Of a stretch of 11,201 nucleotides of DNA, positions 3,001 to 6,000 are shown one piece after another (within the stretch, counting starts at the first letter, position 1; each line of letters begins with the position of its first letter). The DNA is from a virus. The stretch lies in UHGV virus genome UHGV-0222504. One strand, written 5' to 3'. A program made the position numbers.

Positions 3001-6000
3001 GGAACTTAACCGCTGGTTTCGTGACGGAAGAGGACTTTATGTTCATGTTATTCGTTGGGAGCCAGAAACACAGCGCGTTATCTATCTTCGCAAAGACTAC
3101 CCGCATGAGTGCTTTAGTCCTTTGTGGAAATTCAGGCGTGATTTTGTTGAGTGTGAAGGACCACCAGCACATTGATTCTGCCATTCCGGGACGTTACACT
3201 GTTCAGGCACCTTATAAAGCGGGTGCCGGGATTGGCGTCCTGGAATTGATCAAGGCGATATATGACGCGCCAGCGTCTTTTTTATCGTCCGCATTTGCTC
3301 ACATCAAAGTTATGGTGGGCTGGGCGGGGGCATCGAAAGATGCGCCGGTTTCCTTGATCACCGGTTACGCCAACCCCGTTCAGTTCACCACCAGCGAAAT
3401 TGGCGTTTCCGGTGGTGGAAGTATTTCACCGATCAAGGAGGCTGCCATCATGGCTACTGTCCCAGCCCTCACTCGTCTGAATGATGAAGACTTACATAAA
3501 CTCAGTTATGTAACAACTGCACTACGTGCTCTGCGCAAGGTAACTCTTTCGGATCCGCAGGCACATCAGGTTCTGGTAGAAACCCTTCTTAACTTGCAGG
3601 CTGAACGTATTCGTCTGGCGGATAAGGCTAATTTTCATATTCACCGTCTCCTGAATATCAGCGGAGGGCATCGTCATGCTTAATCCGTTGCTCCTCAACA
3701 TTTACCGTTTATTTCAGCGTAAAAAAATATCAACACCCACAGTTGGGCAGTGGTACACCACGCCAGCAGGGCATGTTCTACGTGTCAGCCTGGTTGACCG
3801 TGAATGTCAGAAGGTGATTTGTGAACCGCTGGGCCGTAATTACCGCGTCAGTATGCCGCTTATAGCCTTTCGCTCCGGAAAAAACATGAAGCATCTCGGA
3901 GGTGCAGCATGAGTATGGAGCTGATGGTTAAAGCGATGAAAATTCGAGTGGGTAATCCATTGCGAAAACTGGTTCTGATCAAGCTGGCTGATAATGCCAG
4001 CGATCAGGGTGAGTGCTGGCCCAGCTACCAGCATATTGCTGACCAGTGCGAGATTAGCAAACGTTCTGTGATGAATCATATTGCGGCCCTTTGTGAGTCC
4101 GGGCTGGTAAAAAAAGTCACCCGGAAAGGTGAAAAAGGTAACTCAAGTAATATCTATCTCCTTCATCTGGATGGTGCAGGAGATTCACTAGGGGGTAGTG
4201 CAAATAATTCACTATCTGGTGCAGCAAATTCACCAGGTAGTGCAGGAGTTGCACTAGGGGGTAGTGCAGGAGATTCACCCAGAACCAGTCACTCTTTTGA
4301 ACCAGTCAAAGAACCAGTCAATGAACCAATAGCTGTTGGTGCATCTGCTGATGAGTCTGTGCGAGTTCGTTCAAACCGACCGGAATACTCTCCGGAGTTT
4401 GAGCAGGCATGGCTGGCATATCCCAAACGTGCTGGTGGCAATTCAAAATCTGCAGCCTTCAAAGCCTGGAAAGCCCGTTTGAATGAGGGGGTAAACCCCG
4501 AAACCATGCTGGAAGGTGTGAAACGCTATGCGGGCTGGGTATCTGCGATGGGTAACAGCGGCACACAATTTGTGAAACAGGCTGTCACGTTCTTTGGTCC
4601 GGATCGTCATTTCGAAGAATCCTGGGAAGTTCCTGCGGTATCTGCAGCCAGACGTGAGGACCCGTACTTCAAAGCCAGTTACGACAACGTGGACTACAGC
4701 CAGATCCCGGCAGGATTCAGGGGGTGATCATGAGTCTTTTGAATGAAGTTCAGAAATTCATTGAAGCCCATCCGGGGTGTACTTCCGGAGACATTGCGGA
4801 TGCTTTTGCAGGTTACTCACGGCAGCGCGTTCTGCAGTGGGCGTGTGGCTCACCGTTGTGAAGGAGATACACGCAGACATTTCCCACGCCTGACTGAGAG
4901 AGCGCAGGAGCCGGAACCACAACCAGTTCGTGAAACCAGACCTGTGCGCAATTTCTATGTCGGCACTAACGACCCGCGGGTGATTTTGTGCCTGACCCGC
5001 CAGGCGGAAGAACTGGAGTCCAGGGGCTTATACCGTCGTGCTGCAACGGTGTGGATGGCGGCATTCCGTGAAAGCCACTCCCAGCCAGAACGAAATAATT
5101 TTCTGGCGCGTCGTGAACGGTGTTTACGGAAAAGCAATAAGCGGGCTGCATCAGGTGAAGAGTGGTATCTGTCAGGGAATTACGTGGGGGCTTAATGAGT
5201 AATAAATATTGCCAGGCGCTGGTGGAACTGCGGAACAAACCAGCCCATGAACTGAAGGAAGTGGGCGATCAGTGGCGCACGCCGGATAACATTTTCTGGG
5301 GAATTAACACCCTGTTTGGTCCGTTTGTTCTGGATCTGTTCACTGACGGTGATAACGCCAAATGTGCCGCGTATTACACGGCGGAAGACAACGCGCTGGC
5401 ACATGACTGGTCAGAACGTCTTGCGGAGCTTAAAGGGGCTGCCTTTGGTAATCCCCCATACAGCCGCGCCAGTCAGCATGAGGGGCAATACATCACTGGC
5501 ATGCGTTACATCATGAAGCATGCCAGTTCCATGCGTGATAAAGGCGGGCGCTATGTTTTCCTGATCAAAGCTGCCACCAGCGAAGTGTGGTGGCCGGAAG
5601 ACGCAGACCATATTGCTTTTATTCGCGGGCGTATTGGTTTTGAACTGCCTGCCTGGTTTATCCCGAAGGATGAGAAGCAGGTGCCGACAGGCGCTTTCTT
5701 CGCTGGTGCTATTGCTGTTTTCGACAAGACCTGGAAGGGACCGGCAATCAGCTACATCGGGCGCGATGAACTTGAGGCATGTGGTGAGGCCTTTCTGGCG
5801 CAGGTTCGCCAGCAGGCGGAAAAACTGGTCAGGGAGATGGCGGCATGACGACGTTAACTCAATGCCAGCAGCAGGTGCTGGATATGCTGATTTCTTACCA
5901 GAAAGAACGTGGCTTCCCGCCAACCAATCAGGAGGTGGCAACCATGCTGGGATACCGTTCAGTGAATGCAGCGGTGGAGCATCTTCGCGCACTGGAGAAA

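What the first reader, a model, noticed from the sequence alone, without database searches (positions are those of the whole stretch)
4730..5195. Probable frameshift or fusion in the gene after the replication initiator
The best start (ATG 4730, well-spaced SD, 2 nt after the O-like stop) opens a frame that is protein-like for ~28 codons but stops after 43 codons. The long 150-codon ORF is in a different frame, has a poorly placed start and a non-native-looking N-terminus, yet its C-terminus carries a PerC-like motif. This pattern suggests an indel (pseudogene or sequencing error) or, less likely, a programmed frameshift joining a wHTH N-terminus to a PerC-like C-terminus.
Basis: partly seen in the sequence, partly recalled or inferred. 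Interest (0 to 1): 0.45.

Follow-up and report, generated by a model that had tools for sequence, protein, structure and literature searches.

The report
Frameshifted prophage yfdN/PerC-type regulator gene
The gene after the prophage replication initiator is an ordinary PerC-family (yfdN-type) regulator gene that has lost 23 bases, which breaks its reading frame in two; the deletion is real but rare, and nothing unusual such as programmed frameshifting is involved.

Summary
ATG 4730 has a strong Shine-Dalgarno site and lies 2 nt after the initiator's stop. It opens a frame that ends at TGA 4859-4861 after 43 codons. The 150-codon ORF 4743-5195 lies in the +1 frame and carries a Pfam PerC match.

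The cause is a 23-nt deletion at window 4836-4839, between two AGT triplets. Intact relatives have one continuous 162-164-aa ORF here, annotated "PerC family transcriptional regulator"/yfdN. They include E. coli APEC O78, phage mEp460 and about 2,600 other complete E. coli records.

The missing bases encode the invariant SKLR stretch of the recognition helix of a predicted N-terminal winged-helix domain. The PerC-like three-helix C-terminal domain is intact but out of frame.

None of 3,199 homologous places in complete E. coli genomes has the deletion. The identical junction does occur, at 100% identity over 11.1 kb, in three other public assemblies. These were built with different assemblers, and two of them have different prophage left arms. 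It is therefore a genuine allele and not a read error.

Programmed frameshifting and "two genuine overlapping genes" are not supported.

The most likely status is a recent pseudogene. A winged-helix-less PerC-domain protein made from ATG 4800 cannot be excluded.

This is an ordinary finding.

The parts
3909..4727 (+). Upstream gene: replication-initiator-like protein (272 aa, HTH_36/DnaD_N-like). Its stop TGA 4725-4727 abuts the start of the disrupted gene.
   Evidence: ORF list. Pfam HTH_36 E 1.8e-11; DnaD_N E 3.6e-5, below its cut-off. Annotated replication protein / helix-turn-helix protein in relatives.
4719..4724 (+). Shine-Dalgarno-like AGGGGG serving ATG 4730.
   Evidence: Sequence. Anti-SD duplex -10.7 kcal/mol with 3-nt spacer.
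4730..4861 (+). 5' remnant of the yfdN-type gene: 36 native codons (helix 1, helix 2 and the first part of recognition helix 3 of the winged helix), then 7 out-of-frame codons (WACGSPL) and TGA. RefSeq annotates GTG 4724 as the start in intact homologs; mEp460 uses this ATG.
   Evidence: PHROG phrog_1324 and phrog_23071 match residues 1-38/39 only. Structure model of the intact homolog.
4836..4838 (+). Deletion junction. One AGT remains where intact relatives have AGT-CAGCAAGCAAGTTACGTCAG-AGT, so 23 nt are missing. These are the codons for SASKLRQ plus 2 nt. The exact break is ambiguous within 4835|4836 to 4838|4839.
   Evidence: Alignment with APEC O78 and mEp460. Gap list against AH21I008. 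The lost residues include the invariant S-K-L-R.
4743..4835 (+). Non-native N-terminal 31 codons of the 150-codon ORF. This is the 5' part of a +1-frame 'shadow' ORF that is 57 codons long in intact genes. The deletion fused it to the PerC frame.
   Evidence: Translation of the intact locus in that frame. phrog_2383 matches residues 1-33 of the 150-aa ORF.
4836..5195 (+). 3' remnant: native codons 44-162 of the yfdN-type protein (wing strands, Pro/Glu-rich linker, three-helix PerC-like domain), now in the +1 frame relative to ATG 4730. Stop TAA at 5193-5195.
   Evidence: Nucleotide sequence identical to APEC O78. Pfam PerC 35.8 bits. phrog_1324 matches residues 32-149 of the 150-aa ORF.
4800..5195 (+). 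131-codon ORF that gene callers report for this allele. ATG 4800 has GGAG at 4787-4790. It is the only plausible internal start for a winged-helix-less PerC-domain product.
   Evidence: The exact 131-aa product is in the public collection as P0121 and is called on L004-L006. Anti-SD duplex -6.6 kcal/mol with 8-nt spacer; 26% of all + strand ATGs in the window reach -5.
5195..5848 (+). Downstream phage Dam methyltransferase. Its ATG overlaps the PerC-frame stop by 1 nt (TAATG), so in intact relatives it is positioned for translational coupling.
   Evidence: Sequence. Pfam Dam E 9e-46. Annotations.

Best explanation
The window carries a disrupted allele of a prophage yfdN-type gene.

The intact gene encodes a two-domain regulator of 162-164 aa: an N-terminal winged helix-turn-helix, a disordered Pro/Glu-rich linker, and a C-terminal PerC-like three-helix domain. 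A 23-nt deletion between two AGT triplets (3-nt microhomology, consistent with replication slippage or microhomology-mediated deletion) removed the codons for the invariant SASKLRQ stretch of the recognition helix. It also shifted the frame.

Ribosomes starting at the normal, strong start (ATG 4730) therefore make a 43-residue fragment and stop at TGA 4859. The PerC-domain coding part stays intact but sits in the +1 frame, fused to the start of a shadow ORF.

Shown here: the deletion, its position, its rarity, its presence in several independent assemblies, and the domain layout of the intact protein.

Inferred:
- The slippage mechanism.
- Loss of the winged-helix function.
- A recent origin. 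There are no substitutions relative to the APEC O78 allele in the 501 nt aligned.
- Possible loss of translational coupling to the downstream dam gene, whose ATG overlaps the PerC-frame stop.
For: 1. The split reading frames are as described.
2. The window lacks exactly 23 nt relative to E. coli APEC O78, phage mEp460 and E. coli AH21I008, and is otherwise identical to APEC O78 over 4700-5200.
3. Relatives annotate one CDS of 489-495 nt as a PerC family transcriptional regulator/yfdN, between the replication gene and dam.
4. In 22 intact homologs at 69-98% identity (source names among the search hits include E. coli, Salmonella, Citrobacter and Hafnia), both domains are conserved. S-K-L-R, encoded by the missing bases, is invariant.
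5. None of 3,199 homologous places in 2,589 complete E. coli records has the deletion. The best identity over the 101-nt junction probe is 81.5%, which equals 101/124.
6. The junction-containing 131-aa product is on four other contigs (one search counted three): ENA ERZ976727, 128.8 kb at cov 52; ENA ERZ27297323, a k119 contig; Logan SRR4435778; and one further similar contig not shown. The three retrieved are 100.000% identical to window 1-11107 or 1-8322 and contain the junction.
7. Two of them have different integrase/left-arm modules.
8. The only other indels against AH21I008 across 11 kb are three single-base ones in intergenic DNA.
9. In the AlphaFold model of the intact homolog, H2-15, H21-27, H33-46 and strands 49-54 and 57-62 have pLDDT about 90. 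Foldseek's best short, low-rmsd matches are ArsR/SmtB and Fur/PerR winged-helix domains (MarR and BlaI family structures also listed). The deletion falls in the middle of helix 3.
Against: - No read-level data were available for the window's own source. That contig does show an assembly artefact at its 3' end (a 94-nt fold-back).
- The independence of the other samples is not established. They could be the same strain or outbreak.
- Perfect identity of an 11.1-kb module with a 'dead' gene in two prophage backgrounds would also fit a tolerated or useful allele rather than simple decay.
- Loss of function is inferred, not measured.
- The function of intact YfdN-type proteins is itself untested.
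Confidence: 0.9

Rival explanations
1. Domain-liberating allele. The deletion did not simply kill the gene. By putting ATG 4800 (GGAG 8-9 nt upstream) in frame with the PerC domain, it created a 131-aa winged-helix-less PerC-type protein. This would be expressed and act like the stand-alone PerC/Pch regulators.
For: - Gene callers pick this ORF.
- ATG 4800 has a moderate anti-SD duplex of -6.6 kcal/mol.
- The PerC-domain coding sequence is undamaged.
- Stand-alone families that match only the C-terminal domain exist among phage proteins: phrog_2608 (83 aa) and phrog_10396 (69 aa).
- From my own knowledge, not checked here, PerC and PchA-C are small single-domain proteins.
- The allele is found unchanged in two prophage backgrounds.
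Against: - ATG 4800 lies inside the strongly initiated 43-codon ORF, so elongating ribosomes would occlude it.
- Its SD is unremarkable. 26% of all + strand ATGs in the window reach -5 kcal/mol.
- No promoter-like site was found in 4400-5400.
- The first 12 residues would be shadow-frame sequence.
- The allele is very rare: 4 contigs, against thousands of members in clusters of the intact protein.
- There is no sequence divergence since the deletion, so selection cannot be assessed.
Confidence: 0.08
2. Sequencing or assembly artefact. The 23 nt are present in the real genome and were lost during assembly of the window's contig.
For: - The window's own 3' end (11108-11201) is an artefactual-looking perfect inverted copy of 10906-10999 that relatives lack. 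The source assembly is therefore not flawless.
- The junction is absent from complete E. coli genomes, GTDB representatives, IMG/VR and JGI metagenomes.
Against: - The identical junction is present in three other assemblies from different accessions: a SPAdes-style NODE at 52x coverage, a MEGAHIT-style k119 contig, and a Logan contig.
- A clean 23-nt loss between AGT repeats in otherwise perfect sequence is not a typical platform error.
- No other coding indel occurs in 11 kb.
Confidence: 0.015
3. Programmed +1 ribosomal frameshift, or two genuine overlapping genes. The two-frame layout is the functional design of this locus.
For: - A strong start on the short upstream frame is followed by a long downstream frame in +1.
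- An AAGGAG lies just after the TGA.
Against: - Every homolog outside this 100%-identical allele has one continuous ORF. The layout arose by a deletion, so it is not a conserved design.
- The overlap zone 4839-4861 (UGG GCG UGU GGC UCA CCG UUG UGA) contains no recognised +1 shift site of the prfB CUU-UGA type with an upstream SD (reading).
- The frameshift would in any case yield a protein lacking the invariant recognition-helix residues.
Confidence: 0.005

Closest known systems
YfdN of E. coli K-12 prophage CPS-53 and its prophage orthologues (SfV orf40, mEp460 gp44, RefSeq 'PerC family transcriptional regulator', PHROG phrog_1324)
   Same: - Same position between the O-like replication gene and the phage dam gene.
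- Nucleotide sequence identical to the APEC O78 allele apart from the 23-nt gap.
- Both halves match phrog_1324.
- RefSeq labels many of these homologs yfdN.
   Different: The reading frame is broken inside the recognition helix, so no full-length two-domain protein can be made by standard decoding.
PerC of the EPEC EAF plasmid and PchA-E of EHEC prophages (Pfam PF06069)
   Same: - The 3' remnant passes the Pfam PerC gathering score.
- yfdN is treated in the literature as the K-12 PerC homologue (PMC5931665).
- Pch genes are likewise prophage-borne (PMC6265319).
   Different: - The match covers only profile positions 5-56 of 90.
- From my own knowledge, not tested here, PerC and group 1 Pch are small proteins without an extra DNA-binding domain. 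The intact YfdN type carries an extra N-terminal winged helix and linker.
- No activity on ler or other targets was tested here.
ANR (AraC negative regulator, Aar-like) family, NCBIfam NF033650
   Same: Weak similarity of the same helical segment: residues 96-143 of the intact protein, E 3e-5.
   Different: The score of 23.6-23.9 bits is below the curated cut-off of 32. It is not a member by that test.
Ordinary frameshift pseudogenes in decaying prophages
   Same: - A single private indel in one accessory gene of an otherwise intact operon.
- Other disrupted or internally deleted alleles of the same gene are present in public data, for example P0046, P0058, P0065, P0090, P0098, P0106 and P0112.
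   Different: Nothing material. This allele happens to leave a gene-caller-friendly 131-codon ORF.

Membership tests
PerC family (Pfam PF06069) | Match to the family HMM at or above the gathering score | tested here: met
   The 150-aa ORF scores 35.8 bits against a cut-off of 22.6, E 1e-8, residues 86-137. The intact homologs score 35.6 and 32.8 bits.
PerC family (Pfam PF06069) | Acts as a transcriptional activator (for example of ler/LEE1) | not testable with these tools
   Literature only (PMC5931665, PMC6265319).
YfdN-type two-domain regulators (phrog_1324; RefSeq yfdN) | Near-identical sequence and conserved position between the replication gene and phage dam | tested here: met
YfdN-type two-domain regulators (phrog_1324; RefSeq yfdN) | Single uninterrupted ORF of about 162-164 codons encoding both domains | tested here: not met
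   A 23-nt deletion shifts the frame, with a stop at 4859-4861. The window therefore holds a disrupted allele, not an intact member.
Winged helix-turn-helix DNA-binding domain (N-terminal domain of the intact protein) | H1-H2-H3 plus beta-hairpin wing fold | tested here: met
   For the intact homolog P0003:
- The AF2 model has pLDDT about 90 over residues 1-60 with H-H-H-E-E topology.
- The top Foldseek PDB hits include SmtB, ArsR, MarR, PerR and BlaI. The short domain-level matches (SmtB/ArsR, PerR and similar) align about 60 residues at rmsd 1.6-3 A with probability 1.0. E-values are only 0.03-0.2.
- Sequence-level hints are weak: phrog_1687 MarR at E 8e-5 and BilQ at E 3e-3.

In the window itself the domain is cut in helix 3.
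Programmed ribosomal frameshift genes (prfB/dnaX/IS3-type) | Two-frame arrangement conserved among homologs | tested here: not met
   All diverged homologs are single ORFs. None of 3,199 E. coli places shares the layout.
Programmed ribosomal frameshift genes (prfB/dnaX/IS3-type) | Recognisable slippery site with a stimulator in the overlap zone | tested here: not met
   By reading 4839-4861: there is no CUU-UGA-type or X-XXY-YYZ motif. The SD-like AAGGAG lies downstream of the stop, not upstream of it.
ANR family (NCBIfam NF033650) | Score at or above the curated cut-off | tested here: not met
   23.6-23.9 bits against a cut-off of 32.

The most novel reading that the evidence does not exclude
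The 23-nt deletion is a natural 'domain-splitting' event. It converts a DNA-binding wHTH-PerC fusion regulator into a free PerC-domain protein, translated from ATG 4800, which the same deletion brought into frame. On this reading the allele persists unchanged in at least two prophage backgrounds because the liberated domain is useful, for example as a Pch-like anti-silencer or an ANR-like anti-activator.
Probability: 0.07. Interest if true: 0.3.

Novelty: already known. Interest (0 to 1): 0.08.

Why it matters
It matters little beyond annotation.

- **Annotation.** The locus should be annotated as a frameshifted yfdN/PerC-family pseudogene, or at most as a truncated PerC-domain ORF. It should not be annotated as two genes or as a recoding site.
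- **Gene-caller artefact.** Automatic gene callers turn such lesions into plausible-looking ORFs. The 131-aa product is already in public protein collections, and the shadow-frame ORF even has its own PHROG family.
- **Architecture of the intact protein.** The YfdN type appears to be a winged-helix plus PerC-like fusion. The N-terminal domain matched no Pfam family in the scan run here. This could be relevant to how PerC-like domains are targeted to DNA. It is a property of the whole family, not of this window.

Tried and rejected
- **Exact junction searches.** A 30-mer was searched in GTDB representative genomes and IMG/VR, and a 22-mer in JGI metagenome contigs. All three gave 0 hits. These only show rarity.
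- **Exact look-ups of window products.** The 150-aa, 43-aa and 45-aa products are not on record. Only the 131-aa form from ATG 4800 is.
- **P0035.** This 150-aa hit first looked like the window's ORF. It is a different, C-terminally altered allele.
- **PDB sequence search** with the intact protein gave no hit even at E 10.
- **Promoter and terminator scan** of 4400-5400 found nothing. There is no support for an internal promoter for the 3' ORF or for dam in this allele.
- **Rfam scan** of the window found nothing in 4730-5195 on either strand. The minus-strand ORFs there are at most 90 aa with no family signal.
- **Repeat search** around the deleted segment in the intact allele found no longer direct repeat than the AGT microhomology seen by eye.
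- **Programmed frameshift and overlapping-gene readings** were rejected on the homolog comparison.
- **ANR membership** was rejected on score.
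Full report
**1. Observation**

- The replication-initiator-like ORF (3909-4727) has a Pfam HTH_36 match at E 1.8e-11 and a DnaD_N match below its cut-off. It ends with TGA at 4725-4727.
- ATG 4730 follows 2 nt later, behind AGGGGG (4719-4724). A simple anti-Shine-Dalgarno duplex calculation gives -10.7 kcal/mol for this start. The other starts scored in this window (O-like, dam, LexA-N, rusA, kilA) gave -7.7 to -10.8.
- That frame runs for 43 codons and stops at TGA 4859-4861.
- The 150-codon ORF 4743-5195 is in the +1 frame. Its ATG has essentially no SD (-2.8 kcal/mol).
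- Its residues 86-137 match Pfam PerC (PF06069): 35.8 bits against a gathering score of 22.6.
- The 43-residue peptide has no Pfam or NCBIfam hit of its own.

**2. Cause**

A megablast of 4650-5260 against 5,426 complete E. coli genomes found 2,689 records. A search against INPHARED phages found 49 records, including mEp460, SfV, SfII and several Stx2-converting phages.

In the full-length matches listed, the 611-nt query spans 630-634 nt of the subject. The feature under the match is a single CDS called "PerC family transcriptional regulator", often with the gene name yfdN. It lies between the replication gene and a phage N-6-adenine methyltransferase.

Aligning window 4700-5200 with E. coli APEC O78 and with phage mEp460 shows one gap of 23 columns. 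Apart from that gap, the window is identical to APEC O78 at every position.

- The relatives read CTGC-AGT-CAGCAAGCAAGTTACGTCAG-AGT-GGGCG.
- The window reads CTGC-AGT-GGGCG.

One of two AGT triplets and the 20 nt between them are therefore gone. The junction is at 4836-4838, and the exact break is ambiguous within the 3-nt microhomology. No longer repeat flanks the segment.

Restoring the 23 nt gives a continuous ORF of 162 codons from ATG 4730, or 164 from GTG 4724 as RefSeq annotates it. In that protein the deletion removes S37-Q43 and two bases of codon 44.

The downstream codons, from S44 to the end, are what the 150-codon ORF reads from its codon 32 onward. Its first 31 codons are non-native. 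They are the start of a +1-frame shadow ORF that is 57 codons long in intact genes. PHROG matches agree exactly with this partition:
- phrog_1324 matches residues 1-39 of the short peptide and residues 32-149 of the long ORF.
- phrog_2383 matches residues 1-33 of the long ORF.

**3. Which state is ancestral, and is the two-ORF layout conserved?**

A protein search with the reconstructed sequence returned 199 hits. The most populated clusters among the best hits are 162-164 aa long, and source names among the hits include E. coli, Salmonella, Citrobacter, Hafnia and E. ruysiae.

An alignment of 22 intact members at 69-98% identity shows three parts:
- a conserved N-terminal block;
- an indel-rich Pro/Glu linker;
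- a conserved C-terminal block.

S-K-L-R, encoded inside the missing 23 nt, is invariant. The long form is therefore ancestral and under constraint.

A 101-nt probe across the junction found 3,199 homologous places in 2,589 complete E. coli records. None exceeded 81.5% identity, which is exactly 101/124, the value expected when the 23 nt are present.

**4. Real mutation or error?**

Exact junction searches found nothing in GTDB representative genomes, IMG/VR or JGI metagenomes.

The 131-aa product that starts at ATG 4800 and spans the junction is, however, present in the 15-billion-protein collection (P0121). It is encoded on four contigs, of which three were retrieved:
- ENA ERZ976727, NODE_9, 128.8 kb, coverage 52;
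- ENA ERZ27297323, k119_27874, 21.7 kb;
- Logan SRR4435778_408, 8.4 kb.

All three contain the junction. They are 100.000% identical to window 1-11107, or to 1-8322 for the short contig.

The first two contigs diverge to the left of the shared region, with different integrases and neighbours. They differ at 38 positions in the 1.4 kb just left of the window-equivalent segment. The allele thus sits in at least two prophage or host backgrounds.

Against E. coli AH21I008, the only other indels across 11 kb are three single-base ones, all in intergenic DNA.

I therefore regard a sequencing or assembly error as very unlikely. Read-level data for the window's own source could not be examined.

That source is not flawless. 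Its last 94 nt (11108-11201) are a perfect inverted copy of 10906-10999, whereas the other assemblies continue collinearly into the holin and lysozyme genes.

**5. What the intact protein is, and what the deletion does to it**

Pfam sees only the PerC segment, residues 98-149 of 162.

NCBIfam gives two sub-threshold hints:
- ANR family over residues 96-143, at 23.6 bits against a cut-off of 32;
- the MarR-type BilQ over residues 10-68.

PHROGs give a full-length "transcriptional activator" family (phrog_1324, E 3e-78) and a weak MarR family hit over residues 6-68. No PDB chain matches by sequence.

An AlphaFold2 model of the intact homolog P0003, built on the 22-sequence alignment, has mean pLDDT 77. 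It shows:
- a confident N-terminal domain (pLDDT about 90) with helices 2-15, 21-27 and 33-46 and strands 49-54 and 57-62;
- a disordered stretch at 65-86;
- three confident helices at 92-107, 111-124 and 128-151.

Foldseek against the PDB returns winged-helix regulators throughout the top ranks: SmtB/ArsR, MarR, PerR/Fur, BlaI, PadR and the DriD N-domain. The short domain-level matches (SmtB/ArsR, PerR and similar) align about 60 residues at rmsd 1.6-3 A with probability 1.0. E-values are only 0.03-0.2, and none reaches 1e-3.

The deletion falls in the middle of helix 3, the recognition helix. The product of ATG 4730 keeps helices 1 and 2 and the first turns of helix 3, then seven unrelated residues. 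It cannot form the domain.

**6. Likely consequences (inferred)**

The simplest reading is a recent loss-of-function allele, that is, a pseudogene. There are no substitutions relative to the APEC O78 allele in the 501 nt aligned.

In intact relatives the PerC-frame stop overlaps the dam start by one base (TAATG at 5193-5197). Premature termination 334 nt upstream may therefore also reduce translational coupling to dam. The dam start does have its own SD-like GGGGG (-8.4 kcal/mol).

A less likely alternative is that the PerC domain is still made from ATG 4800, which the deletion placed in frame.

In favour:
- That start has GGAG 8-9 nt upstream (-6.6 kcal/mol).
- It is the ORF that gene callers report.
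- Stand-alone C-terminal-domain families exist in PHROGs: phrog_2608 and phrog_10396.

Against:
- It lies inside a strongly translated upstream ORF.
- Its SD is unremarkable. 26% of all + strand ATGs in the window reach -5 kcal/mol.
- No promoter-like site lies nearby.

**7. Programmed frameshifting**

The downstream frame is +1. The overlap zone (UGG GCG UGU GGC UCA CCG UUG UGA) has no prfB-like or heptanucleotide slippery motif. The SD-like AAGGAG follows the stop rather than preceding a shift site.

The layout arose by deletion from a single-ORF ancestor and is not shared by any diverged homolog. Recoding is therefore not supported.

**8. Comparison with what is known**

The locus is a disrupted member of the yfdN/PerC family of prophage regulators.

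- The literature treats yfdN as the PerC homologue of K-12 and deletes it as background for Pch assays (PMC5931665).
- The five EHEC Pch proteins are prophage-encoded PerC homologues. Group 1 activates ler, and PchE represses csgD and curli (PMC6265319).
- No function has been shown for YfdN-type proteins in what I read.

Other damaged alleles of this gene are also in public data. They include frameshifted or chimeric forms (P0065, P0090, P0098, P0101, P0103, P0106, P0112) and in-frame deletions in the wing and linker (P0046, P0058). Some of these may be assembly errors. Either way, disruption of this gene is not unusual.

**9. Verdict**

The sequencing-error, programmed-frameshift and overlapping-gene readings are rejected or very unlikely.

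This is an ordinary, already-known kind of feature with low interest. The only mildly novel reading left open is a functional, winged-helix-less PerC-domain product. I give it a probability of about 0.07.

Noticed in passing
window 10906-10999 and 11108-11201: The last 94 nt of the window are a perfect reverse-complement copy of 10906-10999, with a 108-nt loop. Otherwise identical assemblies (L004, L005) and E. coli AH21I008 continue collinearly into the holin/lysozyme genes instead. This looks like a fold-back artefact at a contig end.
   Followed up: partly
window 3207-3283 and 3308-3395 (+ strand): Rfam hits above gathering score: isrK Hfq-binding RNA (64 bits) and C4 antisense RNA (82 bits). 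These suggest a P1/P7-type immunity RNA. Both lie inside the 278-codon 'Phage_ASH' ORF 2847-3683, and inside the shorter RefSeq 'ash family' CDS, equivalent to 3138-3683. The protein-coding annotation there is probably over-extended.
   Followed up: no
window 4743-4835, and L001 3094-3267: The +1-frame shadow ORF inside intact yfdN-type genes (57 codons, MKFRNSLKPIRG...) has its own PHROG family, phrog_2383 (E 1.5e-21). It has evidently been annotated as a gene in some phage genomes and is probably a spurious family.
   Followed up: partly
window 5845-6171 (+ strand): A 108-aa protein consisting only of a LexA DNA-binding domain (Pfam LexA_DNA_bind, E 3e-19), without the S24 peptidase domain. 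It sits in the early operon between dam and rusA. A separate full LexA/S24-type repressor lies on the minus strand at about 1290-1964.
   Followed up: no
intact homologs P0003 etc. (alignment A2): The YfdN-type family is a two-domain protein: a confident winged-helix N-domain, a disordered indel-rich Pro/Glu linker, and a three-helix PerC-like domain. In the Pfam scan only the C-terminal part matched a family. The PerC segment also resembles the ANR family below threshold.
   Followed up: partly
L004 1-3830 versus L005 1-3830: Two assemblies share an 11.1-kb early/late-regulatory module at 100% identity, including the deletion. They have different integrases and left arms, and differ at 38 positions in the 1.4 kb just left of the window-equivalent segment. 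This suggests recent modular exchange between prophages or different integration contexts.
   Followed up: partly
proteins P0046, P0058, P0065, P0090, P0098, P0101, P0103, P0106, P0112: Other damaged or internally deleted alleles of the same gene exist in public data. P0106 is another fusion of the shadow ORF to the PerC frame through a different lesion.
   Followed up: no
window 3676-6557 (+ strand): The early operon is a chain of genes with overlapping or abutting stop and start codons (3676/3683, 3909/3912, 4727/4730, 5195, 5845/5848, 6168/6171). This is consistent with translational coupling throughout. The frameshift breaks this chain at one link.
   Followed up: no
window 5195-5848 and 9922-10974 (+ strand): The window encodes two DNA methyltransferases: a Dam-family enzyme and an N6_N4_Mtase-family enzyme just upstream of the lysis genes.
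   Followed up: no
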